Assembly: GCA_964458485.1 (NCBI GenBank)
Contig: CAYWJA010000003.1
Location: 30,524-94,523, forward strand
DNA from: an uncultured Candidatus Peribacteria bacterium
GTDB lineage: Bacteria > Patescibacteriota > Gracilibacteria > UM-FILTER-43-11
Length of the DNA: 64,000 nt
Direction of reading: 5' to 3'
The notes under the pieces: generated by a model
What the model was told of the DNA's origin: nothing
Seen by the model: only the letters and a program-made list of their open reading frames with translations
Database searches by the model: none
Shown here: positions 8,715 to 28,411 of the stretch, one piece after another
Numbering within the stretch: position 1 is the stretch's first letter
Layout of the letters: each line of letters starts with the position of its first letter
Program-made: the position numbers and the translations under genes

Positions 8715-11700
8715 TTACTTATTTACTTTATTAAAAAGAACTGCAACGTCGATCATGTCGACATCTCCGTCACCGTCCATGTCCGCAGCCTGTTTTTGGG
8801 CTGCTGTAGCAGTTGGTAAATTACCTCCTGCAATCTGAAAAGCTATTAATGCGTCTATTGTTGTAATTTTTCCATCACCATCTACATCACCACTTGCCAC
8901 CTTACCTATATATATAGGCATTACAGCGCTTGTCACCTTTCCTGACTTATCAACTATTTGCAAAACTAATGTATAACTTCCATCCGCCATATTTGCATCA
9001 ACTGGAATTTGAACTGGAATTTCGTAAATTTTATAATACTTTGCAGTAGTTGTTGTACCTCCTCCAGAAGAAGGACTACTTGAAGATGAGCTGGAACTAC
9101 TTGAAGAACTGCTTGAACTTGAACTAGATGAACTTGAGCTACTTGAAGAACTGGATGTCCCACTAGTCGTTCCGCTACTCGCTGTTGTTACATTATTTAC
9201 ATGTGTAGTAGCTGTATACCAAACAGCGCTTTTATCATCTTTTATTGTCGGATAAGTTTTTTTCTCTGTTCTAACAATATAAGAATTGATCTGGTCAATG
9301 TCGGCAATTGTTTCCGGTGAAGTTACTTTTACACTCAATTTAACCTGCCCACCTTTCTCGGCAGGATTACTACCAATTCTTTTTATATAATCAATTATGG
9401 CTTTTGAAGACACCTCTACGGTTAATGTGTTAACACTATTAACCTTTGTCCCATCAGGCTTTGCTATCTGTACATATAAATTAGTAGTACCAGTTGTGTC
9501 GCCTTTTGCCAAAATGCCAGAAGTTAAATATTTGTTACTTAATTTGTTGGTAGGATTATATTTCCATGTAACGTCATTGAAATTTAATTCCTTCATGGAG
9601 CCATCTAGATATTTTCCAAGAATGCGCAATTTATAAGTTGAATTTGGATGCAATGCTAATTTGCTTTCTACAGCAGGGACAACTATCACCTCCCCGCTTG
9701 AGGTTGTAACATCCTCTAGAGAAATTGTGCTATCTGCAGGTGTTAATTTTAAAAGACCTGGTGTATTTGATACTTTTGTAACTTTAATAAATGGCTGACC
9801 ATTCAACTCACTCAGTGCATCGATTAATCCATCTTTTGTTGTAGCTTTGCCATCAGGATCATTTAATATAGCATTTATTTTGTCTTTTTCTGTTGTAGCT
9901 GTAGATGTGGAAGGTAGAGTAGGAATTATTTTTGTGGTACTTCCGATTGTTATTGTTGCACCTGCAGCCTTAGATGAATTAACCATAAGGTATGCACTTT
10001 TATATGCATTACTTTTATCCATTACATCTAATTTTGAGATTGTGTCTTTATGTAAGGTTAAAATAAGGCTCGACAAAGTACTGAATGCACTTTTTTCGCA
10101 TGCTAATTTTGTAGTTGTACTTTTAGATGACTTTCCGTAACCGTTTTTAGAATCACATACATCACATAATCCTGATGTGCCACCATATCCTGTATTGCAT
10201 TGACATTTTCCCGTTGTGGTGTTGTATTGCCCATATACACATTTTAGTAACGGAGCTTTTGCTTTTACCGTAACTAAACCTTGTCTAAAATTTATAGCAT
10301 TTTTTGTAGTTGCTGAGGCAGAAGTTGTATAATATGAATTTGACGTTGATTTTTCATCGGCGTCTATAAGAATCTTTGTACCATCTGCCAATCCAGACAA
10401 AATACTTGTTTGAATTCTAAACAATAAAGCATTATCAGCCACATTTTTAGCAACCGTAGGTTTAACCTTAAGAGTTATTGTATCTTTTCCGCTTAATGTA
10501 GTAGATAAAGTAGTAACTACTGTTTCTCCACTAAATATAGTATCTGGTGAATAATTATTAACAAAGGCATATTGACTCTGAGTAGCGGTCGAAACTGGCT
10601 TAAGTTTAATCTGCAGTTCTGTTAATCCTGTTATTGCCTGAGCTGCTTTCACATCTATATATCCTTTAGTGCCAGCCTCAGCTGTATAGTCTGCAGGGAT
10701 ATAAACATTACGCAATGGTGTAGATGTATCTGTGGAAACATTTTCTGTACCACCTTTAAATGTACTTGTGATTTTTGTGACGGGAGTAGCTGTCTTGGTT
10801 TTTAATGTACAAACTGAACTTTTTAATTCATAACCATCAAGACAAGTGGCACAATCCTTTTTCGGATCAAGATTGGAACCTGTAGCACAAGCAGTACATA
10901 CTGCTACACCCTTAGTAGCCTTACAAGTTCCTCCATTTTTCTTACATACATTAGATGTGGATGAACAAGGATCTGTAATACATTTATTAGAGGAATCTAA
11001 TACATAACCTGTACTACATTTACACTGACCTGTTGATGCATCACACGAGCTATTTGTATCACTACATGTAACTCCGTAACACTTATCTACAACACATGTT
11101 GGGTAGCCCTTAAAACCTGCACTACATTTGTCACATACGGTGGTTTTAGTGCCCGCATAACCAGTATTGCATGTACACTTGCCATCACTACAAGTGCCAT
11201 AACCACAGCTGATATTTTTACATGTGTCTATGGTTATTTGTCCTGATTTAAAACTTGGCGCACCTCCTATACCCCCAATCCCTAAATCAATATAAGACGA
11301 AGAAGATGCGGAGGTTGATATTTTTTTATTACGTATATATATAGTCTGTTTGTTTTTACTCTTATTGCTAACTGATACAAAAAGCTTAAACAATACATCA
11401 TTATCTTTGAACTCATATAATTTATTAAAAGGGCCAAATTCAACCGAATATTCGCCAATGCCAACATTAATTTTTTCACTTTCTTTTTCTAATTTTGCCC
11501 CTTTCTTATCAATCTTCCATATAGCATATTCGTCCGAAGAAATTATAAATGTCAATTTAAATGCTTTAACATTTTTTAAATTCCTTCCTGCTCTAACTTC
11601 CACATAATCAAAATCACCTGGTGCTGCAATATAATTTGGTATATAAAACATATCATCTATCTTTGATGTATCATTTGTGCCAAGTTGAAATTTATCGTAG

Positions 11701-18643: not shown

Positions 18644-18734
18644 TTTTTGTCATTTCGACCCTGTGGAGAAATCCCTTCGATCAACCGAAAGGGCAAGGGA
18701 TCCCTCCATGCTAGTCGGGATGACAAATAGTGAA
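18644..18734. mobile_element. MITE-like element, short divergent copy c
   Basis: TTTTTGTCATTTCGACC...GGGATCCCTCCATGCTAGTCGGGATGACAAATAGTGAA. Overlaps the 3' end of argH. Confidence 0.65.
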
Positions 18735-20029
18735 TCAGAAATGCGAAATTTAGAGATTTTTTTCTCCAAAATTTTCAACCCCAAATTCCCAGTTGCACCC
18801 AAATGTGTTTTGGATTTAATATTCTTCACAACATTCTGTTTTTTTATACCCTTCAATTTTAATGCAACCTGCCTGTAAGCATCACGGAAGGGTGTGCCAT
18901 TTTTAACCATATCGTTGACCATATCAGTGGCAAAAATTTCCGGATCAAAGGCTGCCTGAAGCTGCTTCGTATTTGGCTTTAAATGGTTAAAAAGGAGCTC
19001 TGTTATATTAATGCTCGAAAGTACAATGTCAAATGAATCTATTAATGCTTTCTTGGTTATTTTTAAATCTTTATTATAACCGGAAATTAAATTCTGACTG
19101 ACTGACTGAACTTTGAATTGCTCTCCTGCAACCACACTAACATTCGCCCTTAGAACCTCCATAATATCCAAATTTTTCTTTTGAGGCATAATACTGGAAC
19201 CAGTAGTGAGCTGATCATTTACTTTGAAAAAATTAAATTCTTTAGTTGTAAATAAAATTAAATCATTAGCTATTTTACCTAGTGTTAGCATAGTCTGATT
19301 AAGTACACCTATGGTAAAACTCTCAATCTTACCTCTGCTATTTTGACAATAAAGCGAGTTAATCTGTATTTTGGCAAAACCTAATTTTTTTGTTGTATAT
19401 TCCCTATCGATAGGTAGACTTGTGCCAAATCCTGCAGCAGATCCAAGTGGATTTTGATCGTTTAGATTGTAGGCGGATGAGATTGTCTGATAATCATCTA
19501 ATAACGATTCCACAAAACTACCTGCCCACTGCCCAACGCTGGATGGCATCGCCTGCTGCATATGTGTGTATCCCGGTATAGGTAGAAACTCATGTTTTTT
19601 AGCAAATTTTAAAATCGTCTTAGCTAGTTTAATCGTAGCTAATTGGATTATCTTAAGTTGGTGCTTACTAAACAATCTGATGGCGACCAAAATCTGATCA
19701 TTTCTAGATCTGCCCATATGCACTTTTTTACCAACTGCACCTAACTTTTTTGTTAAATAATTTTCAATAGCAGTATGGCAATCCTCATTTATTTGCTTAA
19801 GTTTAAATTTGCCTTTCTTGTTTAAAGTTAAAACTTCTTTTAATCCTTTTATGAGAGATTCTGCCTCTTTTTTGGTTAACAACTTTACTTTCGCGAGCAT
19901 TTCAACGTGTGCAATTGACGCCTGGATGTCGTATGGAAGTAAAATTTTATCCTGTGCAAGATTTACATCAATAATATATTGATTCACCATTGGGTGCATT
20001 TTTTGATAGGTTTCCCATAATTTACCCAT
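18650..20029 (-). CDS. argH: Argininosuccinate lyase
   Basis: Motifs GRSRNDQ, GYTHMQQAMP and SSIMPQKKNLD. Length 459 aa. The last ~26 codons and the stop lie inside a MITE-like element. Confidence 0.9.
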   Translation of the reverse strand: MGKLWETYQKMHPMVNQYIIDVNLAQDKILLPYDIQASIAHVEMLAKVKLLTKKEAESLIKGLKEVLTLNKKGKFKLKQINEDCHTAIENYLTKKLGAVGKKVHMGRSRNDQILVAIRLFSKHQLKIIQLATIKLAKTILKFAKKHEFLPIPGYTHMQQAMPSSVGQWAGSFVESLLDDYQTISSAYNLNDQNPLGSAAGFGTSLPIDREYTTKKLGFAKIQINSLYCQNSRGKIESFTIGVLNQTMLTLGKIANDLILFTTKEFNFFKVNDQLTTGSSIMPQKKNLDIMEVLRANVSVVAGEQFKVQSVSQNLISGYNKDLKITKKALIDSFDIVLSSINITELLFNHLKPNTKQLQAAFDPEIFATDMVNDMVKNGTPFRDAYRQVALKLKGIKKQNVVKNIKSKTHLGATGNLGLKILEKKISKFRISDSLFVIPTSMEGSLALSVDRRDFSTGSK

Positions 20030-20897
20030 TTTCTGATTGGTTAGTGGCTAAATAACAAGCAATTTTCCCCTTGTGAATGTCCTTTTTAGGAAAAATAATA
20101 AAAGAATTTTGATCTATTGTAATTTTCTGGCCATTATCTTGTGCAATTATTGTTTTATTATCCAAAAAATCAAAATTGTTATAATCAGAAGTAAATTTAA
20201 ATTGATCCGATTTTGGCACTATATGATCGTAAATTATCAGATGCTTTGGATTAGACTGATTAGATATAGGAATATTTAAAAAACATGAACCAATTTTTTG
20301 TAAAAACTGCTGAATTTTTTTTAAAATAATTATTTCTTTACCATTTTCTCTATACCATCCTGTTTCATAAGTAATACCAATACCCCCATGTGCATCTACA
20401 AAAGTATCTATTGATGAGGTAAGGTCTTCAGTTTTAAAATCTGACGCTTTTGAGACCATATAACCTACATCAAATATTGACGCTAAATCTAAATGATCTT
20501 TTGTCGATTTTGTGTAAATAAAAGGTACTGAAGGTTTAAGTGTGGAATGAATATCTAATAAAAAATCTGCCTTTTTTAAAATCGGAGCAATACTTAATGC
20601 TCTTTCTTCTTCATAATTAAGATCTGACTCCTGTTTCTTTTTAAGTAAATCAAAGTTAAACCCAAATTGTCTGTTTAAATCGCAGTCGATGTATCTTTTT
20701 TCCGCTACATAAGCTGGAGGATTTCCAACAATAATGTAAATTTCTCCGTTAATATCCTCTTTTTGCATAATTAATAACAAAATTTCTATTATATGCGCAC
20801 CTATCCTCTCGTTACCATGTACGCTACCAGTAATAACCACGGTTGGACCTGGATTTTTTCCTTTAAAATAATATGTATAAGAAGGTAATTTAGTCAT
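20022..20897 (-). CDS. Succinylglutamate desuccinylase/aspartoacylase (AstE/AspA, M14-like) family deacylase
   Basis: N-terminal VVITGSVHGNERIG zinc-ligand motif and later LLDIHST. The ORF overlaps argH by 8 nt and ends 1 nt after argB, so it is inside the arg operon. Confidence 0.65.
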   Translation of the reverse strand: MTKLPSYTYYFKGKNPGPTVVITGSVHGNERIGAHIIEILLLIMQKEDINGEIYIIVGNPPAYVAEKRYIDCDLNRQFGFNFDLLKKKQESDLNYEEERALSIAPILKKADFLLDIHSTLKPSVPFIYTKSTKDHLDLASIFDVGYMVSKASDFKTEDLTSSIDTFVDAHGGIGITYETGWYRENGKEIIILKKIQQFLQKIGSCFLNIPISNQSNPKHLIIYDHIVPKSDQFKFTSDYNNFDFLDNKTIIAQDNGQKITIDQNSFIIFPKKDIHKGKIACYLATNQSENG

Positions 20898-20898
20898 G

Positions 20899-21753
20899 TC
20901 ATTCTTTTAAATAAGTATTTTTCTCATTTTGATTGGTAAACATAGTGCCAACGCCTTTTTGTGTAAGTACCTCGTTAAGCAAGCTATGTTCCGAAAGACC
21001 ATTTAAAATATGAATACGTTTTACATTGTTTTTAACCGCATGAATGCAGTTTTGAATTTTTACAACCATTCCGTTCTTTGCGATTTTTTTATTAATTAAA
21101 TCCATTCCTTCCTTTGGCGTGAGTACACTAATGAGCTTTGAGCCTTTATAGACACCATCTGTTTTTGTAAATAAGATGAGCTTTTCAGCCTGCATAGCTA
21201 TCGCAATTTCAGTTGCAATCGTATCTGCATTAATGTTTAAAATTGTTCCATTGTTTGAAACTGCTAAGGGGGAAATAATAGGTAAATAACCTTTGCTGAT
21301 CAGATCCGAAAGTATTTGTGGATTAACATTATTGATATCGCCTACATAACCATAATCCACTTTTTTAATTGCCCTCTTCTTAACATCAAGCAAATTTCCA
21401 TCAAGTCCACTAACCCTTATGCCTTTTAGGCCAATTTGCTTCATAATACTGAGAATTTCGAGGTTCAAAGTGCCACCATAAAGCATTTTTACTATTTCCA
21501 GATCTTTTTTAGTTGTCACCCTTCTCCCCTTAATTTTGATAGGGCTATGGCCAAGTTTAAAAGCAAGATCATCAGCCTGTGTACCACCTCCGTGCACTAA
21601 GATTATATGAATACCAAAATCATGAATTGATTTAATATCTTTTAGTATATTTTTTAAATTTCCCTTTGAATTAATCACCTCACCTCCAACTTTTAAAACA
21701 AAGACCTTGTTTTTGAATTTAGAGAGGTAAAATTGTTTCTGAAAATTATTCAT
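20899..21753 (-). CDS. argB: Acetylglutamate (N-acylglutamate) kinase
   Basis: VLKVGGEVI and ILVHGGGTQ amino-acid-kinase motifs. 284 aa. Operon context. Confidence 0.9.
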   Translation of the reverse strand: MNNFQKQFYLSKFKNKVFVLKVGGEVINSKGNLKNILKDIKSIHDFGIHIILVHGGGTQADDLAFKLGHSPIKIKGRRVTTKKDLEIVKMLYGGTLNLEILSIMKQIGLKGIRVSGLDGNLLDVKKRAIKKVDYGYVGDINNVNPQILSDLISKGYLPIISPLAVSNNGTILNINADTIATEIAIAMQAEKLILFTKTDGVYKGSKLISVLTPKEGMDLINKKIAKNGMVVKIQNCIHAVKNNVKRIHILNGLSEHSLLNEVLTQKGVGTMFTNQNEKNTYLKE

Positions 21754-22904
21754 GGCAACTGTTTTATTGATTTAGTAAAAATTTCTAAAAACTGATTTAG
21801 CTCTTCCCACGAAACATTAAGTGGTGGCATGATTCTGATTATATTTTTTATTGAAGAGCTTCCAATTATTAATCCATTCTTCAGACATAATTTAGGTAAA
21901 TCCTGTGCAGGTTTTTTAAATTCAATTCCGATCAACAAACCCTTTCCGTGTATTTGGTTAATTTGTGGATGAGACTTGAGCCTCTTCTTCAGATATTCTC
22001 CTTTTTTCTCTACTTCAAAATCATTTTCAAGCAACATTTTAATTGTCGCCAAGCCTGCTGCACAAACCACCAAACCGCCACCAAAAGTCGTTGCATGTTC
22101 ACCAACCCCAATTGTTTTAGCTATATCTTCTTTGACTAAAACTGCAGATAGAGGTAGGCCAGATGCTATGCCTTTGGCAGTGGTTATAACATCCGGAATT
22201 ACACCAACTGACTGGCAAAACCAAAATGTACCGGTTCTACCAAGTCCGGTTTGTACTTCATCAAAAATGAGTAAAATATTTTTTTCTTCACAAAATTCTG
22301 CAAGCTTTTTATAAAATTTGGTTTCTGCCATTTTAATCCCTCCAATACTTTGAATGGGTTCACAAATAACAGCGGCTACATCTTTGTTGTATACTTTTTT
22401 AATGCTTTCCATATCACCTAGATCAGCAAAACAAGTATATTCATCTAAATTCGGTTCAAATTGATGATATGAAGACAAGCCTGTTACACCTAATGCCGAA
22501 ATACTTCTGCCGTGAAATGAATTTTTAAAAGCAATGATATGTTTTTTGCCGGTTTTTTTTCGTGCTATTTTCAGAGCTGTTTCGTTTGCTTCTGAGCCTG
22601 AATTTGCAAAATAGACCTGGTAAGGCTCCTTTAATGTGCCAGCTAGCTTATCTGCAAGTTGGATAGCGGGATTCGTCTTAAAAATATTGGAATAAAATAT
22701 TAATTTTTCCGATTGCTCCTTTATTGCTTTTACTACCTGTGGTGGGCAGTGGCCAAGTAAACAAACTGCATGCCCACCGTAAAAATCTAAATATTTTTTA
22801 CTTTTACTATCCCAGACGCTACTACCATCCCCTTTTACAATCTCTATAGGATACTGCGCATAAGTTTGAATTAATGCTGATAATTTGGATGATTTTAAAT
22901 TCAT
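21750..22904 (-). CDS. argD: Acetylornithine/succinylornithine aminotransferase (class III)
   Basis: SGSEANETALKIARK, DEVQTGLGRTG and TTAKGIASGLP (PLP lysine). 4-nt overlaps with both neighbours. Confidence 0.9.
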   Translation of the reverse strand: MNLKSSKLSALIQTYAQYPIEIVKGDGSSVWDSKSKKYLDFYGGHAVCLLGHCPPQVVKAIKEQSEKLIFYSNIFKTNPAIQLADKLAGTLKEPYQVYFANSGSEANETALKIARKKTGKKHIIAFKNSFHGRSISALGVTGLSSYHQFEPNLDEYTCFADLGDMESIKKVYNKDVAAVICEPIQSIGGIKMAETKFYKKLAEFCEEKNILLIFDEVQTGLGRTGTFWFCQSVGVIPDVITTAKGIASGLPLSAVLVKEDIAKTIGVGEHATTFGGGLVVCAAGLATIKMLLENDFEVEKKGEYLKKRLKSHPQINQIHGKGLLIGIEFKKPAQDLPKLCLKNGLIIGSSSIKNIIRIMPPLNVSWEELNQFLEIFTKSIKQLP

Positions 22905-23911
22905 GGGTAAATTGGGCTAAATAAATTCAATCCGGTGGACTGACTAAGGCCGAACATTAGGTTCATATTCTGAATAGCATTGCCAGCCGCGCCTTTTATT
23001 AAATTGTCGATTACGGCCTGAATTACAACTTTTTGATTAATAATTTGTATGCTGATATCACAAAAATTTGAGCCAATTACAGAAACAAGTTCTACTTCTG
23101 ATTTCATACGTATAAATGGGAAATCTTGATATGCCTTTTTAAATAAATTATCTAAATCTGATTGATTTATCTTTTTCTTTAAATCAATAAAAGCAGTTAA
23201 ATGTATACCCCTGGTAAATGGTCCACTAGTTGGCACAAAATTAATATTCGATTCAGACAATTTTAAACTTTGTATAATTTCCGGAATATGCTGATGAGAT
23301 CCGATTTTATAACTCTTCATATTATGTCCACGTATGGGGTGATGAGTATTTTCTTTGGCTGTTTTGCCGGAACCACTAGAGCCAGTGACAGCTAAAATAT
23401 CTACATGTTTAATAAAATTTGTAATTGGCAATAATACAAGTTGGGCTGCTATTGCAAAACATCCGGGATTAGCAATGTTATCTGATTTTTCAATAAATTT
23501 TTTCTGGTATTCCGGTAAACCATATGCAAATTTACCTATTAAATTCTGACTTTGATGACAATTGCCGTAATATTTTTTAAATAATGAGATATCTTTAATC
23601 CTGAAATCACCGGAAAGATCAATTATTTTAGTTTTTCCGATAAGTTCTGGAATAATTTTTTGAGACTGCAAATTGGGAAGTGCTAAAAATACCAAGTCAC
23701 TTTCATTTGCAACTATTGCCGGATCAGTATTTGTTAATTCAATATTGCAAACACCTTCTAAATGTGGATATACGTTGTTAATTGTTTCACCTGAATTATT
23801 TTTAGATATAAGGTATTTAAATTCGACATTTGGATGTCCGGCAAGAAGTCTTATTAGCTCAAGTCCTGTATAGCCCGTAGCGCCGATGATTGAGATACTT
23901 ATTTTAGACAT
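22901..23911 (-). CDS. argC: N-acyl-gamma-glutamyl-phosphate reductase
   Basis: IIGATGYTGLELIRLL Rossmann motif and NPGCFAIA active-site Cys. 336 aa. Confidence 0.9.
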   Translation of the reverse strand: MSKISISIIGATGYTGLELIRLLAGHPNVEFKYLISKNNSGETINNVYPHLEGVCNIELTNTDPAIVANESDLVFLALPNLQSQKIIPELIGKTKIIDLSGDFRIKDISLFKKYYGNCHQSQNLIGKFAYGLPEYQKKFIEKSDNIANPGCFAIAAQLVLLPITNFIKHVDILAVTGSSGSGKTAKENTHHPIRGHNMKSYKIGSHQHIPEIIQSLKLSESNINFVPTSGPFTRGIHLTAFIDLKKKINQSDLDNLFKKAYQDFPFIRMKSEVELVSVIGSNFCDISIQIINQKVVIQAVIDNLIKGAAGNAIQNMNLMFGLSQSTGLNLFSPIYP

Positions 23912-23919
23912 AATTTTAT

Positions 23920-23994
23920 AGTCTCATGTGCGAGTGCGAGTCTCAAGTAGCACATTAATAAACCTTGAGACTTGAGACATGCACTTGAGACTTA
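23920..23994. repeat. CTTGAGAC-family hairpin overlapping the 3' end of CDS 23955-25007
   Basis: AGTCTCATGTGCGAGTGCGAGTCTCAAG..loop..CTTGAGACTTGAGACATGCACTTGAGACT. Confidence 0.8.
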
Positions 23995-25007
23995 ATTAAA
24001 ATATAGTTAAATAATTCATCTCCACTATTAAGTGCATTAATAGCCGGAATATTGAGTTTCTTTTTGATAAAATTAACACCCACACTATTGTCGCTTACTG
24101 GCCCCGAAATGACATCTAGGGGTGCACCAATTTCTTTGCATATTTCGGCTAATTGCAATGCCCCTGCAGGATCGTGGGCACAGCCGATGTGGGATACAAT
24201 ATTTTTTTGAATTTCAGGATCTTTTAAGATATTTAAAACACCATATTCACCATAAACACCATCACCGAATTCAATTACAATTGCGTCTGGATTATCCTCA
24301 GAAAGATAATCAATAGATCCTTTGGTAACAGTAACTGGTAACTTACAGCCATTAACGGTAGATGGATAGCCAGCATCGACAAAGGAGGTTACTTTTTTAG
24401 CACCATAATCTTTCATATTCTCAGTATCTTTCAGTGCTGCTACACCTGCCAGCTTAGCCCCAAAAATTGTCATTTTGTTGTGCAATGCGTGTTTTATAAT
24501 TTCACATGCAGCTGAAGTTTTACCAACATGCATACAAGTTCCGCTTACTACGATTAACGGAGTATTGGATTTTAAATTATCTTTCTCTGAAAATAATTTC
24601 GCCTGTTTAATGTTTAAATTTTTTCCACTATTTACTATGGCACCGAGTACTTTGATTTTTAGGACATGTCCTACTTCTTTTATGTTTTCACTGATGCATT
24701 CCCCTGCAACTCCGCCTAAATTAAGTACGCTGATTACATTCCCCACCTCAAGTGACTCAGGAGTATTTCCAACAAACCCCTTCAATGCCTTTCTGTTACC
24801 GAGCGATACAGCAATAACATCTCCTTTTTTAAGGGTCGAGAGCCTACCTGAAGGAAGTTCCAGCTTATTATATTTCTTTTTATCTTCCAATACTTCCACT
24901 GCAAGAACAGCTCCTTCTTCAGAAATTATATTATCTGAAATTTCAACTTCTGTAGGAAGTTTTAAATTATAAGTAACTGATGCGATTTTGTCTAAAGTGA
25001 TGTTCAT
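23955..25007 (-). CDS. P-loop (BioD/DUF1611-like GTxxxVGKT) protein of unknown function embedded in the arg operon
   Basis: VVSGTCMHVGKTSAACEI P-loop, then a Walker-B-like DAIVIEFGDG. The N-terminal ~130 aa are beta-rich. The C-terminal codons (..SQVHVSSLKVY) are encoded by one arm of a repeat hairpin. Confidence 0.6.
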   Translation of the reverse strand: MNITLDKIASVTYNLKLPTEVEISDNIISEEGAVLAVEVLEDKKKYNKLELPSGRLSTLKKGDVIAVSLGNRKALKGFVGNTPESLEVGNVISVLNLGGVAGECISENIKEVGHVLKIKVLGAIVNSGKNLNIKQAKLFSEKDNLKSNTPLIVVSGTCMHVGKTSAACEIIKHALHNKMTIFGAKLAGVAALKDTENMKDYGAKKVTSFVDAGYPSTVNGCKLPVTVTKGSIDYLSEDNPDAIVIEFGDGVYGEYGVLNILKDPEIQKNIVSHIGCAHDPAGALQLAEICKEIGAPLDVISGPVSDNSVGVNFIKKKLNIPAINALNSGDELFNYILIKSQVHVSSLKVY

Positions 25008-25050
25008 GATTTTGATGCTTAGTGCTGTTTTTGTGCTTTTTGTAAGTGCT

Positions 25051-25124
25051 GTAGGCTTGTAGGATGTAGGCTTGTAGGATGTTCTATTATAATAAATTCC
25101 TACATCCTACGTCCTACAAGCCTA
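25051..25124. repeat. GTAGGCTTGTAGG-family hairpin downstream of argF
   Basis: GTAGGCTTGTAGGATGTAGGCTTGTAGGATGTTCTATTATAATAAATTCCTACATCCTACGTCCTACAAGCCTA. Confidence 0.85.
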
Positions 25125-25131
25125 ATTAGTG

Positions 25132-26145
25132 TCATCCCAGCAAATAATCAATTATCCCCATTTGTACCCACATGCGATTTTCAGCCTCCTGGATGACAAC
25201 TGACTGTTCGCTGTCTAGTACTTCATCTGATGCAACTACATTCCTTCTGACAGGCAGGCAGTGCATAAAAATGGCATTATTTGTTAAATCCATCTTATTT
25301 TTATCTACCATCCAATCTGTAAATTTCTTGCGATAGTCTGATTCTGCTTTCCAGTCTCCAAAATATTTGAGCGATGCCCAGCTTTTGGCGATCACAACAT
25401 CAGCATCTTCAAGTGCTGATACTTGATTATTTGTAATTGAAAATTTACCCGCCTTACCCTTAGCAAAATTCATCACATCTGCATCCAATTCAAATCCGGA
25501 TGGACAGGCAAGTGTTACATCAGCGCCAAATATGGATGGTGTAAGTAACTGCGAATGGGGGGTGGCTAAAGGTAAGGCTTTTGGATGCGGTGCCCATGTA
25601 AGAACTATCTTTTTACCTGTAAGTGATCCAAAATGCTCCTGCATTGTCATTACATCCGCCATCGACTGGCATGGATGGAACATATTAGATTCCATGCTGA
25701 TAATCGGTTTATCTGCATACCTGGCAAGTTCATAAATTGGTTGGTCTTTTTTTAACTCTTCCCAAGTTTGCTCAACTTCTTGAGTACTGCTTTTCTTAGT
25801 CATCAAATCACTTTTCCTTAATGCAATCAGATCCGTGTAGGATGAAATCACCTGTGCTGCTTCTTTGATGTATTCCTGTGTATTACCATTCATCACAACA
25901 CCTTTTTTATATTCAAATTCCCATGCATCAGTTGCAGAAAGCACATTAACTTTTCCACCCAATTTTTTCATACCGGATTCGAATGATAATCTGGTTCTGA
26001 GCGATGGGTTTGCAAAAATTAATGTAAGAATTTTATTTGAATAATCAGGTATTTCCTGTCCTTTTTTATATGCAATAGCTTTATCAATTATCAATTGTAG
26101 CTGTGCTTTAGTGTAATCCCCTGTGGTTATAAAATTTTTAGTCAT
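25132..26145 (-). CDS. argF: N-acyl-ornithine (acetyl- or succinyl-) carbamoyltransferase, argF-prime type
   Basis: SLRTR instead of STRTR, HPCQ, TWAPHPKALP and FMHCLPVRRN. These are the motif variants I recall for the Xanthomonas AOTCase and Bacteroides SOTCase clade rather than classical OTCase. Confidence 0.8.
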   Translation of the reverse strand: MTKNFITTGDYTKAQLQLIIDKAIAYKKGQEIPDYSNKILTLIFANPSLRTRLSFESGMKKLGGKVNVLSATDAWEFEYKKGVVMNGNTQEYIKEAAQVISSYTDLIALRKSDLMTKKSSTQEVEQTWEELKKDQPIYELARYADKPIISMESNMFHPCQSMADVMTMQEHFGSLTGKKIVLTWAPHPKALPLATPHSQLLTPSIFGADVTLACPSGFELDADVMNFAKGKAGKFSITNNQVSALEDADVVIAKSWASLKYFGDWKAESDYRKKFTDWMVDKNKMDLTNNAIFMHCLPVRRNVVASDEVLDSEQSVVIQEAENRMWVQMGIIDYLLG

Positions 26146-27337
26146 GATTATTTTGGGTTAAATATGCGTTGACACTTTCCATTCCATATAATTTACAAAA
26201 AGAAGCTGCGTCCTGGCCGCTCCAGTTGCCAACCTCTTCACCATAAATTCCCATGTTTGAATTAAGTAGAGAATATTTACTTTTGATAGACTGAACTTCC
26301 AAATTTCCTTTATATAATTTTATCTGCACTGTTCCTGTAGCGTATTTATTAGATGAGTCTAAAAATGCCTCCAGATTTTTTACCAGCGGATCAAGAAAAA
26401 GTCCTTCGTGGATTAGGTCTCCATATAAATTCCCTAAAATATTTTTCCAAAAAAGCTGTTTAGAAGTTAGGGTAATTTTTTCCAGTTCGCTATGGGCTTT
26501 AATTAATAATTTAAGTGCTGGAGCCTCAAAGCCGATCTTTCCTTTAATGCCGATAATCGTGGTGCCAATGTGATAATCCTTTCCAAAGCTGTGACTAACT
26601 GTAATAGTATTGAGTTTATTAATAATGCTGACACCATCCATTTTCTTGCCATTAAGGGAAACTGGTAAGCCTTTTTTAAATTTTATAGAAATTGAAATGT
26701 ATTTATTACTTGCCTCATTTATACTTTTTACATTGGGAAAAACTGAATCCGGCAATTCTTTATCAGTGCCTTTAGTTTCTTTGCCACCAATAGTAGTACC
26801 AAGTAAACCAATATTAATTGAATAATCTTTTATTTCCGGATTTACATTAATACCTGCCTTTTTTAAGACCGTAACTTCCTGTTTCCTTGTATGCCCCCCA
26901 TCACGGATCGGTGTTAGAATTTCAACTTCTGGCATTAAAGCCTTAAATGCAAAATCAAACCTTGCCTGATCATTGCCAGCACCAGTTGACCCATGTGCGA
27001 TTGCAGTTGCCTTTTCCTTTTTCGCTACCTCGACGATCTTTTCTGCAATTACATTTCTTTCCGGACCAACGCATGCAGGGTAAACACCGCCTTTGAGGTA
27101 GTTGGCCTTTATAATGTAGCTGGCGAACTTGTCGTATAGATCTTTTTTAGCATCAACTTCGTAATGTTTTATTGCGCCAAGTTTTTTGGACTGCATTTTG
27201 ATAGCCTGCAGCTCATCTTTCATAAAACCTCCTGTATGCACAGTTGCAGTTATAACTTTATATCCCTTTTTTTGAAGGTGTGGGATACAAAAGCTGGTAT
27301 CAAGACCACCGGAGAATGCGAGAATTACTGTTTTCAT
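26138..27337 (-). CDS. argG: Argininosuccinate synthase
   Basis: AFSGGLDTS N-type ATP-pyrophosphatase motif. 399 aa. First gene of the operon. Confidence 0.9.
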   Translation of the reverse strand: MKTVILAFSGGLDTSFCIPHLQKKGYKVITATVHTGGFMKDELQAIKMQSKKLGAIKHYEVDAKKDLYDKFASYIIKANYLKGGVYPACVGPERNVIAEKIVEVAKKEKATAIAHGSTGAGNDQARFDFAFKALMPEVEILTPIRDGGHTRKQEVTVLKKAGINVNPEIKDYSINIGLLGTTIGGKETKGTDKELPDSVFPNVKSINEASNKYISISIKFKKGLPVSLNGKKMDGVSIINKLNTITVSHSFGKDYHIGTTIIGIKGKIGFEAPALKLLIKAHSELEKITLTSKQLFWKNILGNLYGDLIHEGLFLDPLVKNLEAFLDSSNKYATGTVQIKLYKGNLEVQSIKSKYSLLNSNMGIYGEEVGNWSGQDAASFCKLYGMESVNAYLTQNNHD

Positions 27338-27581
27338 ATTATTAATTATTAATTAAAAAAACCTCCACACTAGGCAGAGGCTGTATAAATTGATATATCA
27401 CTAAATCACCGCAGCTTCTGCCGTTTTTTTACGCGTCGTCGATTTCTGTTAAATTGATTCATGATTATTACGATTATTACTATTGTGCTTTTCATTATAG
27501 GGTATTGTGGAAGTATTGTCAAGAATCTTACGTCAGTTATTTTGTTTACATTTGGAGGCTTATTGATGATAAAATATGAGG

Positions 27582-27655: not shown

Positions 27656-28411
27656 ATGATCAACAAAGCCCTCTCACAATTCAACCTCAAATCCTCCGAA
27701 ATCGATACGTACACAACCCTTTTGCAAATCGGTGCGCAACCGGCGAGCGTTGTTGCAAAAAAGCTCGATAAACCGCGCACTACGGTAACCGTGTATCTTA
27801 AAAAACTCAAAAAAGAAGGGTTCATCCGAGTTATATGGAAGGGGCGAACGCAATATTATGTACCGGAGGATCCAAAACAGATTCTTAAAAACCTTCAGGA
27901 AAATAAAATCCGCTCAATGGAAAAAATGGATATGGGAATGCGTGCTTTTTCTACGATCATTCCGGAGCTTGCCTCTATAACGAGGACTGATTATGTTTTA
28001 CCAAAAGTAACATTTTACGAAGGAACTTCTGAATTAAAACAGATGTACAAAGATACACTTACATCTAAAACAGAAATTCTCTGTCTTAGCTCAGTTGAAG
28101 ATTTATGGGATCTTTTTGGCAGAGAATATGATAGTTGGTATGTAAAAAAGCGTGCAAAAAATCAAATTCCATTAATGTATTTGGCAAAAGATACACCAAT
28201 TGAGAGGAGTGAGATTAAAAAGGATAAAGAATTCTTCCGTCAGTCGCGACTACTACCGCCGGAACTTTTTGATATTACTAATGAGATAAATATTTATGAC
28301 AATAAAGTTTCTATAATTACATTAAAGGAGGAGAAGATTGGGATACTTATTGAGAGCAAAGAAATCTATCATACTATGAAGACTATATTTCGGATGTTGT
28401 GGGGGAAATAG
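27656..28411 (+). CDS. TrmB-family HTH transcriptional regulator
   Basis: N-terminal winged helix LSQFNLKSSEIDTYTTLLQIGAQPASVVAKKLDKPRTTVTVYLKKLKKEGFI. 251 aa. Divergent from the arg operon. Confidence 0.7.
   Translation: MINKALSQFNLKSSEIDTYTTLLQIGAQPASVVAKKLDKPRTTVTVYLKKLKKEGFIRVIWKGRTQYYVPEDPKQILKNLQENKIRSMEKMDMGMRAFSTIIPELASITRTDYVLPKVTFYEGTSELKQMYKDTLTSKTEILCLSSVEDLWDLFGREYDSWYVKKRAKNQIPLMYLAKDTPIERSEIKKDKEFFRQSRLLPPELFDITNEINIYDNKVSIITLKEEKIGILIESKEIYHTMKTIFRMLWGK

What the first reader, a model, noticed from the sequence alone, without database searches (positions are those of the whole stretch)
18650..27337. Arginine operon of the N-acyl-ornithine carbamoyltransferase type with two non-canonical members and no argJ/argA/argE
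The gene order is argG, argF-prime, P-loop protein, argC, argD, argB, AstE-family deacylase, argH, with 4-8-nt overlaps. The carbamoyltransferase has SLRTR, HPCQ and HCLPVRRN. These are the variants of the acetyl-/succinyl-ornithine transcarbamylase clade, which acts before deacylation. The canonical deacetylase ArgE and the first-step acyltransferase (ArgA/ArgJ) are absent. In their place are an AstE/AspA-family zinc deacylase and an unknown P-loop protein. The AstE-like protein is a natural candidate for an N-succinyl- (or acetyl-) citrulline deacylase. From memory, a single residue (Glu in the acetyl-specific enzyme, Pro in the succinyl-specific one) sets specificity. My unaided alignment puts Gln there (..NGNTQEY..), so the acyl group is undetermined. 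A full arginine pathway would also be unusual if this really is a reduced CPR-type genome.
Basis: partly seen in the sequence, partly recalled or inferred. Interest (0 to 1): 0.6.

Follow-up and report, generated by a model that had tools for sequence, protein, structure and literature searches.

The report
Succinyl-type arginine operon in Peregrinibacteria
An uncultured ultrasmall (CPR, Peregrinibacteria-like) bacterium carries a complete operon, apparently switched by arginine supply, that most likely makes arginine through succinylated intermediates; a P-loop protein already predicted elsewhere would do the first step, and an AstE-type zinc hydrolase replaces the usual deacylase.

Summary
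Eight co-directional minus-strand genes run argG, argF', unknown P-loop gene, argC, argD, argB, AstE-family gene, argH. ArgJ, ArgA and M20 ArgE are not detected in the 92.7%-complete genome.

- **Acyl group:** the carbamoyltransferase has Gln90/Pro192/Val304 at the three published discriminating positions. That is the succinyl-ornithine pattern, so the acyl group can be called succinyl.
- **P-loop protein:** its family occurs in at least 440 species of about ten phyla. It almost always sits in arg operons whose ArgF' is succinyl-type (55 of 55). A 2026 GapMind preprint already predicts, without experiment, that what looks like the same family is an alternative N-succinylglutamate synthase. This scan has noted the family 56 times on other DNA.
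- **Found here, unreported in the searched literature:**
  1. An AstE-family hydrolase with an intact zinc site sits in the Peregrinibacteria operons where other phyla have an M20 ArgE-like gene. It is a candidate N-succinylcitrulline desuccinylase.
  2. An arginine-codon leader-peptide attenuator precedes argG. Six relatives have Arg-specific T-boxes there instead.
  3. Seven Peregrinibacteria genomes keep the P-loop gene but lack the arginine genes tested (argC, argG in six of seven; argF' in the five tested).
  4. The P-loop motifs resemble ATP-using BioD more than DUF1611. An ATP-dependent succinate-glutamate ligase is therefore not excluded.

All enzyme functions are inferred; nothing has been tested at the bench.

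The parts
27494..27522 (-). Promoter-like site, TTGACA-17-TATAAT (12 of 12 consensus positions), upstream of the operon
   Evidence: Conserved in the close relative L113. Consensus match only; not shown to be functional.
27406..27462 (-). Leader ORF of 18 codons, MNQFNRNRRRVKKRQKLR*, with 6 Arg codons including CGA CGA CGC at 27441-27433
   Evidence: Only 8 of 13,529 small ATG ORFs in the genome have RRR and at least 6 Arg. In L113 the ORF is kept, all three changes in the Arg run are synonymous, and six of the eight changed sense codons are synonymous.
27354..27422 (-). Attenuator RNA. Region 2 (GGCAGAAGCT, 27422-27413, inside the 3' end of the leader ORF) can pair with region 3 (AGCCTCTGCC, 27382-27373) as an anti-terminator. 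Regions 3:4 (27382-27360) plus a U-run form the terminator.
   Evidence: Terminator scan. Constrained folds: the terminator forms only when a ribosome at the stop codon masks region 2, and the anti-terminator forms in free RNA or with a ribosome at the Arg codons. Regions 2 and 3 are identical in L113.
26138..27337 (-). argG, argininosuccinate synthase (399 aa)
   Evidence: TIGR00032 318 bits (cut-off 268); PF00764 and PF20979.
25132..26145 (-). argF', knotted acyl-ornithine carbamoyltransferase (337 aa), predicted N-succinyl-L-ornithine transcarbamylase
   Evidence: NF003384 361 bits. 261 bits to Xanthomonas AOTCase and 175 bits to Bacteroides fragilis SOTCase structures. Trp75, Gln90, Lys189, Pro192 and Val304 match the SOTCase rule of PMC4581275.
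25053..25124 (-). Very stable hairpin in the argF'-unknown spacer, with no U-run after it
   Evidence: RNA fold -40 kcal/mol, z = -10.6, 0 of 200 shuffles as good. Role not studied.
23955..25007 (-). Unknown two-domain protein (350 aa): an N-terminal beta-rich domain of about 140 aa without a known fold, plus a C-terminal SIMIBI-type P-loop domain. Predicted N-succinyl-L-glutamate synthase.
   Evidence: No family hit. AF2 pLDDT 88.8 for the whole protein and 93.6 for the N-domain. Foldseek hits SRP/FtsY, DUF1611, BioD and HypB for the C-domain and finds no match for the N-domain. Arg-operon synteny across phyla. ArgB fusion P0184. Family-wide invariant residues G156, G162, K163, T164, K185, D211, E246, D249.
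22901..23911 (-). [quoted passage not shown]
   Evidence: TIGR01850 352 bits (cut-off 234).
21750..22904 (-). argD, acyl-ornithine aminotransferase (384 aa)
   Evidence: PF00202 341 bits; TIGR00707 392 bits, just under its cut-off of 410.
20899..21753 (-). argB, N-acylglutamate kinase (284 aa)
   Evidence: TIGR00761 213 bits (cut-off 151).
20022..20897 (-). AstE/AspA-family zinc hydrolase (291 aa), candidate N-succinyl-L-citrulline desuccinylase
   Evidence: PF24827 73 bits. Hits to AstE 1YW6 and aspartoacylase structures. H27, E30, H117, R68, N75, R76 and E178 are conserved in 43 orthologues. It occupies the argB-argH slot that holds an M20 gene in other phyla. Close orthologues occur only in genomes with the arg operon.
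18650..20029 (-). argH, argininosuccinate lyase (459 aa, with a tail about 30 residues longer than in relatives)
   Evidence: TIGR00838 322 bits (cut-off 280) over residues 10-389. The close relative L111 has a 429-aa ArgH.

Best explanation
This is one transcription unit that encodes the whole route from glutamate to arginine through N-succinylated intermediates. Proposed order of steps:
1. The P-loop protein makes N-succinyl-L-glutamate.
2. ArgB phosphorylates it.
3. ArgC reduces it.
4. ArgD transaminates it to N-succinylornithine.
5. ArgF' (succinyl-ornithine type) carbamoylates that to N-succinylcitrulline, using carbamoyl phosphate from CarB, which is encoded elsewhere in the genome.
6. 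The AstE-family zinc hydrolase removes succinate to give citrulline.
7. ArgG and ArgH finish arginine.

Expression is probably set by charged tRNA-Arg. A ribosome stalled on the Arg-Arg-Arg run of an 18-codon leader ORF leaves an anti-terminator free to form. A ribosome that reaches the stop codon covers it, so the terminator just before argG forms instead.

Shown directly: gene content and order, family membership of six enzymes, the specificity residues, intact catalytic residues, synteny across phyla, and the alternative RNA pairings in silico. Inferred: all substrate assignments, the succinyl donor, and attenuation itself.
For: Pathway content:
- Six canonical arg enzymes are identified, five above their curated cut-offs and ArgD just under its own.
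- CarB is present.
- ArgJ, ArgA and ArgE were not detected in the 92.7%-complete genome. The only M20 protein is carbamoylase-like.

Succinyl assignment:
- Gln90/Pro192/Val304 fit the published SOTCase rule A/S/P/V/Q, P, V/I/E.
- All 55 ArgF' genes next to a homologue of the P-loop gene fit the rule, and none has Glu/Asn/Lys.

P-loop protein as the first enzyme:
- It is the only unassigned gene, and step 1 is the only unassigned step apart from deacylation.
- The gene lies between argG or argF' and argC in Peregrinibacteria, Gemmatimonadota, Elusimicrobiota, Planctomycetota, Acidobacteriota, Myxococcota, Spirochaetota and Eisenbacteria, and in a MAG labelled Woesearchaeota.
- One representative, P0184, is a single ORF that joins it to an ArgB-type kinase domain. 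This is the same pairing as in bifunctional ArgA/ArgB.
- An independent preprint makes the same prediction.

AstE-like protein as the desuccinylase:
- Zinc ligands, catalytic Glu and carboxylate-binding Arg residues are conserved.
- It is present wherever the argB-argH interval lies on the contig in the CPR loci that carry the operon (14 loci), in the slot that holds an M20 ArgE-like gene in other phyla.
- It stays in the operon when the gene order changes (L027).
- Orthologues of 47-51% identity occur only in genomes with the operon.
- The characterised family member AstE hydrolyses an N-succinyl amino acid.

Arginine-specific control:
- Leader ORF and switchable terminator.
- Synonymous-only changes in the Arg run in relative L113.
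- T-box leaders with specifier CGC (Arg) at the same place in L010, L018 and L031. The T-box motif is found in six CPR loci and nowhere else in the 80 loci.
Against: - No biochemical data exist for any of these proteins.
- ArgF' is closer overall to Xanthomonas AOTCase (261 bits) than to Bacteroides SOTCase (175 bits).
- ArgF' has Lys189 where SOTCase has the succinyl anchor Arg178.
- I found no report that a Glu92-to-Gln change was tested.
- Seven Peregrinibacteria genomes carry the P-loop gene but no ArgC (0 of 7). ArgF' was absent in the five of them that were tested (0 of 5), and only one of the seven has ArgG. The family therefore has, or can acquire, a role outside arginine synthesis.
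- Four GNAT-domain proteins are encoded elsewhere in the genome and cannot be excluded as the first enzyme.
- The fusion P0184 is a single, N-terminally truncated sequence from a high-GC metagenome.
- The leader RNA as a whole does not fold better than shuffled sequence (z = -0.63).
- The genome is incomplete, so absence of genes is not proven.
Confidence: 0.7

Rival explanations
1. The pathway is as described, but the P-loop protein is an ATP-dependent succinate:L-glutamate ligase (BioD/CobQ-type acyl-phosphate chemistry), not a succinyl-CoA-dependent transferase like DgcN. With the AstE-type hydrolase it would recycle free succinate, and the pathway would need no acyl-CoA.
For: - The family-wide invariant Walker A is GKT with Thr164, and the Walker-B-like motif is E246-x-G-D249-G.
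- The best profile match in the PDB is dethiobiotin synthetase. It aligns the P-loop and puts Lys185 on the BioD Lys that follows the P-loop helix (E = 0.08).
- Five bona fide DUF1611 proteins have GKM[T/F] instead and lack that Lys.
- hhalign between the family and DUF1611 gives 7% probability over 38 P-loop columns only.
- The genome shows no succinyl-CoA synthetase or other Ligase_CoA domain, no 2-oxoacid dehydrogenase E2 and no family-I CoA transferase.
Against: - The only characterised enzyme with a related fold that acylates glutamate, DgcN (DUF1611), uses acetyl-CoA. This rests on my knowledge of Yu et al. 2023 as cited.
- The genome encodes a two-subunit 2-oxoacid:acceptor oxidoreductase (TIGR03710, 554 bits). 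It could make succinyl-CoA from 2-oxoglutarate.
- The BioD alignment is not statistically significant.
- A P-loop can also bind the phosphates of CoA.
Confidence: 0.3
2. The acyl group is acetyl, or another acyl group, rather than succinyl. ArgF' would then be an acetylornithine transcarbamylase and the AstE-like enzyme an N-acetylcitrulline deacetylase.
For: - ArgF' matches the NCBIfam 'N-acetylornithine carbamoyltransferase' model (361 bits) and is most similar to the Xanthomonas enzyme.
- It has Lys189, as in AOTCase, at the position of the SOTCase succinyl anchor Arg178.
- Gln is isosteric with Glu.
- AspA-family members such as aspartoacylase and DoeB hydrolyse N-acetyl amino acids.
Against: - All three discriminating residues are of the SOTCase type, and Gln is listed among them.
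- Pro192 and Val304 replace Asn185 and Lys302.
- The NCBIfam model does not separate the two specificities.
- All 55 ArgF' linked to this P-loop family are non-Glu at position 92.
Confidence: 0.15
3. The P-loop protein is not the first enzyme. It would be an accessory NTPase (regulator, assembly or metal-delivery factor, as many SIMIBI proteins are), and an unlinked GNAT makes the N-acylglutamate.
For: - The top Foldseek hits are the SRP/FtsY and HypB GTPases.
- The gene persists in seven genomes that lack the arginine genes tested, in five loci next to two RimK-like ATP-grasp genes.
- Four GNAT-domain proteins are encoded elsewhere.
Against: - None of the GNATs is linked to arg genes. Two of them are parts of UvrC-like and ELP3-like proteins.
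- The strict operon position across about ten phyla and the fusion to ArgB fit an enzyme that acts next to ArgB.
- The conserved N-terminal domain carries invariant Arg, Lys and Asp residues suited to binding dicarboxylates.
- The preprint reports that the family and ArgA homologues are never found in the same genome.
Confidence: 0.1

Closest known systems
Bacteroides-type arginine biosynthesis through N-succinylated intermediates (SOTCase of B. fragilis, PDB 1JS1/2FG6; B. thetaiotaomicron BT3761, BT3717, BT3549; GapMind 2020, PMC7311316)
   Same: Both use an acyl-ornithine transcarbamylase with the succinyl-type residues, deacylate after carbamoylation, and use the ArgB, ArgC, ArgD, ArgG and ArgH homologues.
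   Different: The first enzyme there is a GNAT (BT3761) and the desuccinylase candidate is an M20 protein (BT3549). Here the first enzyme is an unrelated P-loop protein and the deacylase is an AstE/AspA-family enzyme. ArgF' has Gln, not Pro, at the key position, and Lys at the Arg178 position.
[quoted passage not shown]
   Same: Both are hypothetical proteins embedded in arg operons. ArgA is absent, the neighbouring ArgF' is succinyl-type (the preprint also reports two homologues with Gln), and there is remote Foldseek similarity to the DUF1611/DgcN fold.
   Different: The preprint states the family is 'virtually always' in arg operons, but in Peregrinibacteria about half of the loci are outside them and seven such genomes lack the arg genes tested. 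The preprint does not discuss the acyl donor, an AstE-type deacylase or CPR genomes.
Succinylglutamate desuccinylase AstE / aspartoacylase family (Pfam PF24827 and PF04952; E. coli AstE PDB 1YW6; human aspartoacylase 2O4H)
   Same: Both share the catalytic-domain fold family, the HxxE...H zinc site, the catalytic Glu, and the RYIDCDLNR motif found in aspartoacylase.
   Different: Scores lie far below the equivalog cut-offs: TIGR03242 astE 63 bits against 306, and aspartoacylase 69 bits against 180. The gene sits in a biosynthetic arg operon with no other ast genes nearby. The proposed substrate, N-succinylcitrulline, is not a known substrate of the family.
DgcN / DUF1611 (PF07755; PDB 2OBN, 2G0T, 7XRJ), D-glutamate N-acetyltransferase
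   Same: Both are two-domain proteins of about 340 aa whose C-terminal domain is a SIMIBI P-loop fold with a GTxxxVGK motif. The known activity is N-acylation of glutamate.
   Different: The window protein has no Pfam hit. hhalign gives 7% probability over the P-loop only. The N-terminal domain is a beta-rich fold with no PDB match. The P-loop reads GKT, not GKM. True DUF1611 genes coexist with this family in five of ten genomes tested.
Classical leader-peptide transcription attenuators (trpL, hisL, leuL, thrL of enterobacteria) and Arg-specific T-box leaders (Rfam RF00230)
   Same: The window has a promoter, a short ORF with a run of codons for the end-product amino acid, mutually exclusive 2:3 and 3:4 hairpins, and a U-run before the first gene. 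Relatives use a T-box with an Arg specifier at the same place.
   Different: I know of no described arginine-codon attenuator for an arg biosynthetic operon, and Rfam has no family matching this leader. The T-box matches score 70-84 bits, below Rfam's gathering score of 93.

Membership tests
[quoted passage not shown] | Transcarbamylase core motifs SxRT, HPxQ and HxLP, and both OTCace domains | tested here: met
   SLRTR, HPCQ and HCLP are present. PF02729 scores 114 bits and PF00185 112 bits.
[quoted passage not shown] | Knotted acyl-ornithine subgroup: extended 80's loop with Trp, and the Glu144 and Lys252 equivalents | tested here: met
   Full-length alignment to AOTCase 3KZC at E = 1.7e-76. 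Trp75, the Glu of 'SMES' and the Lys of 'AKSW' align with Trp, Glu144 and Lys252. NF003384 scores 361 bits, above its cut-off of 288.
[quoted passage not shown] | Discriminating residues at AOTCase positions 92/185/302 are A/S/P/V/Q, P and V/I/E rather than E, N, K (PMC4581275) | tested here: met
   Gln90, Pro192 and Val304.
[quoted passage not shown] | Succinyl anchors His176, Arg178 and Arg278 of the B. fragilis enzyme | tested here: inconclusive
   His187 and Arg300/Arg301 are present, but Lys189 stands at the Arg178 position, as in AOTCase and in 52 of the 55 operon-linked ArgF'.
[quoted passage not shown] | Catalytic preference for N-succinylornithine | not testable with these tools
   Needs an enzyme assay.
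AstE/AspA zinc deacylase family (PF24827) | Catalytic-domain profile match above the Pfam threshold | tested here: met
   73.4 bits against a cut-off of 25. The C-terminal hybrid domain PF04952 scores only 16.8 bits, below its cut-off of 25.
AstE/AspA zinc deacylase family (PF24827) | Zinc ligands His-x-x-Glu and a distal His, a catalytic Glu, and substrate-carboxylate Arg/Asn | tested here: met
   H27, E30, H117, E178, R68, N75 and R76 are at least 95% conserved in 43 orthologues. The alignments to AstE 1YW6 and aspartoacylase cover these motifs.
AstE proper (succinylglutamate desuccinylase, TIGR03242) | Equivalog score, and context with astCADB | tested here: not met
   62.7 bits against a cut-off of 305.65. 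The neighbours are arg biosynthetic genes, not ast genes.
Predicted P-loop-type N-succinylglutamate synthase (ACG33_RS14135 family, GapMind 2026) | Gene embedded in arg operons of genomes without ArgA/ArgJ | tested here: met
   The gene is arg-linked in 65 of 82 family members examined.
Predicted P-loop-type N-succinylglutamate synthase (ACG33_RS14135 family, GapMind 2026) | Neighbouring ArgF' of the succinyl type | tested here: met
   55 of 55.
Predicted P-loop-type N-succinylglutamate synthase (ACG33_RS14135 family, GapMind 2026) | Sequence homology to A0A127FCT3 itself | not tested
The identity of the two families is inferred from matching descriptions.
Predicted P-loop-type N-succinylglutamate synthase (ACG33_RS14135 family, GapMind 2026) | Formation of N-succinyl-L-glutamate | not testable with these tools
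   No member of the family has been assayed.
DUF1611 / DgcN (PF07755) | Profile match to PF07755 and to the DUF1611 N-terminal domain | tested here: not met
   The window protein has no hit at E <= 0.01. Distant family members give sub-threshold P-loop hits of 17-21 bits. hhalign against five DUF1611 proteins gives 7% probability over 38 columns. The N-domain has no structural match.
Dethiobiotin synthetase-like (BioD) ATP-dependent enzymes | GxxxxxGKT P-loop, a Lys after the P-loop helix, and an acidic Walker B | tested here: inconclusive
   The motifs are present and invariant. The profile match to BioD has E = 0.08 over 43 residues. The Foldseek hit to BioD 3OF5 has E = 1.7e-5.
Leader-peptide transcription attenuator | Promoter, short ORF with a run of regulatory codons, alternative anti-terminator and terminator, and a U-run before the first gene | tested here: met
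   All evidence is in silico. Attenuation itself is not testable with these tools.

The most novel reading that the evidence does not exclude
The P-loop protein is an ATP-dependent succinate:L-glutamate ligase that uses BioD-like acyl-phosphate chemistry. Together with the AstE-type desuccinylase it closes a CoA-independent succinate cycle, so that an organism without a TCA cycle or succinyl-CoA synthetase can protect and deprotect the arginine intermediates. The copies kept in Peregrinibacteria that have lost the arginine pathway would show that the same ligase chemistry serves a second, unknown N-acyl-amino-acid product, perhaps with the neighbouring RimK-like ligases.
Probability: 0.25. Interest if true: 0.8.

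Novelty: new variant of a known kind. Interest (0 to 1): 0.5.

Why it matters
- **CPR metabolism:** arginine synthesis is one of the textbook pathways whose first and fifth steps are still unassigned in many genomes. This operon shows that a CPR lineage usually described as metabolically minimal can encode the whole route.
- **A second solution for desuccinylation:** an AstE-type enzyme stands where other phyla have an M20 enzyme. Genome annotation pipelines and auxotrophy predictors such as GapMind would currently score this step as a gap. The preprint notes the same ArgE gap in Steroidobacter.
- **Independent evidence of function:** the arginine-codon attenuator and the Arg T-boxes indicate, without relying on enzyme homology, that both unassigned genes are expressed in response to arginine supply.
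- **Bench-ready questions:** the motif comparison with BioD and the P-loop genes left behind in genomes without the pathway give two concrete questions about a protein family found in hundreds of species. Does it use ATP or an acyl-CoA, and what else does it make?

Tried and rejected
- **Sequence searches for the P-loop protein.** Pfam, NCBIfam and PDB searches with the single sequence found nothing. A profile search of the PDB gave only a non-significant BioD match.
- **DUF1611 membership.** Rejected after hhalign against five real DUF1611 proteins taken from genomes that also carry the P-loop gene.
- **Fold of the N-terminal domain.** It was modelled alone (pLDDT 93.6) and searched against the PDB. 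The best E-value was 0.3, so no fold was assigned.
- **'No route to succinyl-CoA in this genome'.** I set out to use this as an argument for an ATP-dependent ligase and had to drop it as decisive. SucCD, E2 and family-I CoA transferase are absent, but a two-subunit 2-oxoacid:acceptor oxidoreductase is present.
- **The second argB/argC/argD-like cluster on contig C5.** It turned out to be a LysW/LysX/LysZ/LysY/LysJ set, so it is not a second arginine operon.
- **The single M20 protein as a hidden ArgE.** Rejected, because it is of the hydantoinase/carbamoylase type and is unlinked to arg genes.
- **T-box in the window's own leader.** None was found in an E-value scan. Rfam at gathering thresholds also missed the relatives' T-boxes, which appeared only in local E-value scans.
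- **Arg-rich leader ORFs in other relatives.** L005, L011 and L014 have RRR or RRRR mini-ORFs, but the geometry in L005 does not fit the classical model. I do not claim them.
- **Direct comparison with A0A127FCT3.** Not possible with the tools available.
- **Primary papers.** Shi et al. 2007 (PMC2203365) is not held, so the residue rule is taken from the 2015 review by the same authors. The DgcN primary paper did not turn up in the full-text searches.

Full report
**1. What is there**

Profile searches identify six of them as ArgG, ArgF' (NF003384 'N-acetylornithine carbamoyltransferase', 361 bits against a cut-off of 288), ArgC, ArgD, ArgB and ArgH; all but ArgD (392 bits against its cut-off of 410) score above their curated cut-offs. 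The 291-aa protein is a member of the AstE/AspA catalytic-domain family (PF24827, 73 bits). The 350-aa protein matches nothing in Pfam, NCBIfam or the PDB. Four junctions overlap by 4 or 8 nt, and two spacers of 124 and 43 nt flank the unknown gene.

The window lies in a 1.64-Mb, 56-contig genome estimated 92.66% complete. Its closest relatives are labelled Peregrinibacteria, Peribacteria or Gracilibacteria. That genome shows:
- no ArgJ, no ArgE (TIGR01892) and no ArgA;
- a carbamoyl-phosphate synthetase large subunit;
- a single M20 protein, of the hydantoinase/carbamoylase type and unlinked to arg genes.

**2. The acyl group**

A HMMER alignment to Xanthomonas campestris AOTCase (PDB 3KZC, E = 1.7e-76) places Gln90 on Glu92, Pro192 on Asn185 and Val304 on Lys302 (checked by MAFFT). 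The 2015 review by Shi, Allewell and Tuchman states that these three residues separate AOTCase (Glu, Asn, Lys) from SOTCase (A/S/P/V/Q, P, V/I/E) (PMC4581275). The protein therefore has the succinyl pattern at all three positions, and Gln is explicitly on the list.

Two caveats apply. The protein is more similar overall to the Xanthomonas enzyme than to the Bacteroides SOTCase (261 against 175 bits). It also has Lys189 where B. fragilis SOTCase uses Arg178 as one of three succinyl anchors.

**3. The P-loop protein**

A word-indexed search found 1,990 homologues, all unnamed. An exhaustive profile search found 1,496 clusters at 50% identity. A scan of one genome per GTDB species found at least 440 species that encode it.

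In 80 fetched loci I mapped the window's eight proteins by tblastn.
- CPR loci show argG-argF'-X-argC-argD-argB-AstE-argH.
- Gemmatimonadota, Elusimicrobiota, Planctomycetota, Acidobacteriota, Myxococcota, Eisenbacteria and a MAG labelled Woesearchaeota show argG-X-argC-argD-argF'-argB-[1.1-kb gene]-argH.
- The 1.1-kb gene is an M20 ArgE/DapE-like peptidase.

All 55 ArgF' genes in these loci carry the succinyl-type residues (V, A, Q, S, T or P; then P; then E, V or I), and none has Glu/Asn/Lys. One representative, P0184 (626 aa), joins the family to an amino-acid-kinase (ArgB-type) domain in one ORF. That is the domain partnership seen in bifunctional ArgA/ArgB.

The AlphaFold model (pLDDT 88.8) has two domains. 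The C-terminal domain is a SIMIBI-class P-loop fold with Foldseek hits to SRP54/FtsY, DUF1611 (2OBN, 2G0T), BioD and HypB. The N-terminal 140-residue beta-rich domain, modelled alone at pLDDT 93.6, has no match in the PDB (best E = 0.3).

**4. What the literature already says**

A full-text search found the GapMind 2026 preprint (10.1101/2024.10.14.618325, version of 2 July 2026). [quoted passage not shown] Its arguments are:
- the gene is 'virtually always' in arg operons;
- it never co-occurs with ArgA homologues;
- it has weak Foldseek similarity to the D-glutamate acetyltransferase DgcN (7XRJ);
- the neighbouring ArgF' proteins have succinyl-type residues, with two of 70 carrying Gln.

No experiment is reported. 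I could not obtain that sequence, so I infer rather than show that the two families are the same, but every descriptor matches. The scan's own notes show the same family and the same preprint in 56 earlier findings on other genomes. The preprint does not mention AstE-type enzymes or CPR genomes, and it notes that Steroidobacter also lacks a recognisable ArgE.

**5. The AstE-like protein**

Its zinc ligands (His27, Glu30, His117), catalytic Glu178 and carboxylate-binding Arg68, Asn75 and Arg76 are at least 95% conserved in 43 orthologues. The RYIDCDLNR stretch is shared with human aspartoacylase. Its scores are far below the AstE and aspartoacylase equivalog cut-offs, so it is a separate subfamily. 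The subfamily is small: about 50 clusters above 40% identity, those with names all from Patescibacteria or Peregrinibacteria, followed by a drop to 30% or less.

Three observations tie it to the operon.
- It is present wherever the argB-argH interval lies on the contig in the CPR loci that carry the operon (14 loci), in the argB-argH slot that holds the M20 gene elsewhere.
- It remains in the operon in L027, where it has moved to follow the P-loop gene.
- Among nine Peregrinibacteria genomes, orthologues of 47-51% identity occur only in the two that have the operon.

The pathway needs one hydrolase, and the characterised family member AstE hydrolyses N-succinylglutamate. The natural assignment is therefore N-succinylcitrulline desuccinylase. 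I found no paper that proposes this. The scan has noted AstE-type genes at the 'argE' position in a few other genomes.

**6. Regulation, an independent line of evidence**

Upstream of argG lies a perfect TTGACA-17-TATAAT promoter-like site (27522-27494). A terminator-like hairpin with a U-run ends 23 nt before the start codon. Between them is an 18-codon ORF, MNQFNRNRRRVKKRQKLR, with six Arg codons, three of them consecutive. Only 8 of 13,529 small ATG ORFs in all frames of the genome are as Arg-rich.

The last codons of the ORF (GGCAGAAGCT) are complementary to the 5' arm of the terminator (AGCCTCTGCC). Constrained folding gave these results:
- In the free RNA, or with a ribosome placed on the Arg run, this anti-terminator pairing is the minimum-energy structure.
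- With a ribosome at the stop codon, the terminator forms.

In a close relative (L113, P-loop protein 91% identical) the ORF is retained with its start shifted by one codon. The Arg run reads CGT CGT CGA, so all three changes in it are synonymous. Six of the eight changed sense codons are synonymous, and regions 2 and 3 are identical.

Other CPR relatives have a T-box leader at the same place instead. L010, L018 and L031 give RF00230 matches of 70-84 bits (E = 4e-15 to 7e-19, below the gathering score of 93), each with GAA-CGC at the specifier position, which is an Arg codon. The T-box motif lies 95-152 nt upstream of argG in six CPR loci and nowhere else in the 80 loci. Two different tRNA-Arg-sensing devices in front of the same operon argue that all eight genes, including the two unassigned ones, serve arginine supply.

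**7. Observations that complicate the picture**

Within the CPR clade of the family (30 rows, support 99), 14 loci have no arg gene within 10 kb. I searched seven of those genomes.
- None has ArgC above threshold (0 of 7).
- None of the five tested has an acyl-ornithine transcarbamylase; their best hits of 38-59 bits were not examined further.
- Only one has ArgG.
- Two operon-bearing control genomes scored positive.

The catalytic motifs are retained in these 'orphan' copies. Five of them lie next to two RimK-like ATP-grasp genes and clpP. The family therefore has a role beyond arginine synthesis in some lineages, and I cannot explain it.

Second, the acyl donor is open. The family-wide invariant motifs are GKT (Lys163, Thr164), Lys185 and E246-x-G-D249-G. 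These resemble ATP-using BioD, to which the family profile aligns best (E = 0.08). Five authentic DUF1611 proteins have GKM[T/F] and no equivalent Lys, and hhalign links the two families only through 38 P-loop columns at 7% probability.

An ATP-dependent ligation of free succinate, recycled by the desuccinylase, is chemically plausible. It would suit a genome with no detected succinyl-CoA synthetase, E2 or family-I CoA transferase. A two-subunit 2-oxoacid:acceptor oxidoreductase could nevertheless supply succinyl-CoA. I put the ligase reading at roughly one in four to one in three.

**8. Verdict**

It is sharpened to a succinyl-type pathway.
- The P-loop 'ArgA' is a new member of a family whose role has already been predicted but not tested.
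- The AstE-type desuccinylase in place of the M20 enzyme, the arginine-codon attenuator or Arg T-box control, the orphan copies and the BioD-like motif pattern are, as far as the searched literature goes, new details.

Overall this is a new variant of a known kind of pathway. It is of moderate interest and offers clear bench tests.

Noticed in passing
window 27354-27522 (minus strand): A promoter, an 18-codon Arg-rich leader ORF (MNQFNRNRRRVKKRQKLR) and a switchable anti-terminator/terminator lie in front of argG. This looks like an arginine-codon leader-peptide attenuator. It is conserved, with synonymous changes in the Arg run, in relative L113.
   Followed up: yes
L010:7440-7714, L018:7303-7547, L031:7368-7660 (T-box motif also in L007, L009, L012): T-box leaders with specifier CGC (Arg) lie 95-152 nt upstream of argG in six Peregrinibacteria/Gracilibacteria-labelled genomes. 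They score 70-84 bits, below Rfam's gathering score of 93. The same operon therefore uses a T-box in some CPR lineages and a leader peptide in others.
   Followed up: partly
L013, L016, L020-L026, L029, L032-L034, L003 (P-loop gene at about 10001-11010 in most): 'Orphan' copies of the P-loop gene occur in Peregrinibacteria genomes that lack argC (0 of 7), argF' (0 of 5 tested) and mostly argG (1 of 7). In five loci the gene is beside clpP and two RimK-like ATP-grasp genes. In four it is beside priA, trpS and pyrG. Their function is unexplained.
   Followed up: partly
protein P0184 (626 aa, from the representative library): A single ORF joins the P-loop family (residues 3-310) to an amino-acid-kinase/ArgB-type domain (363-597). 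It is N-terminally truncated and comes from a high-GC source. I could not check its genomic context.
   Followed up: partly
own genome G000, contig C5:32658-37923 (outside the window): A LysW carrier-protein cluster is present: LysJ-like aminotransferase, [LysW]-aminoadipate kinase (347 bits, cut-off 223), LysY-like reductase, LysX (334 bits, cut-off 276) and a 57-aa LysW ending in EDWGQ. A class-II amidotransferase-like gene sits between lysX and lysW. This suggests an alpha-aminoadipate-type lysine route in a CPR genome.
   Followed up: partly
window 25053-25124 (minus strand): The argF'-P-loop spacer holds a very stable imperfect hairpin built from GTAGG-type repeats (-40 kcal/mol, z = -10.6) with no U-run after it. 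It may be an intra-operon RNA stabiliser or a repeat-element insertion.
   Followed up: partly
window 18650-18740: ArgH is 459 aa here but 429 aa in the close relative L111. The extra C-terminal residues do not match the ArgH model.
   Followed up: partly
window 27656-28411 (plus strand): A TrmB-family winged-helix regulator (PF01978, 44.7 bits) is transcribed divergently from the arg operon. I did not check whether the pairing is conserved.
   Followed up: no
L085:8805-18387: A MAG labelled Woesearchaeota carries the bacterial-style operon (argG-X-argC-argD-argF'-argB-M20-argH) followed by a second, distant transcarbamylase-like gene. This could be a binning or labelling error, or a transfer into a DPANN archaeon.
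   Followed up: no
own genome G000, contig C1 around 89313-89546: A 583-aa UvrC-like ORF contains a GNAT (PF00583) match of 26 bits in its middle. This is an unusual insertion that I did not examine further.
   Followed up: no
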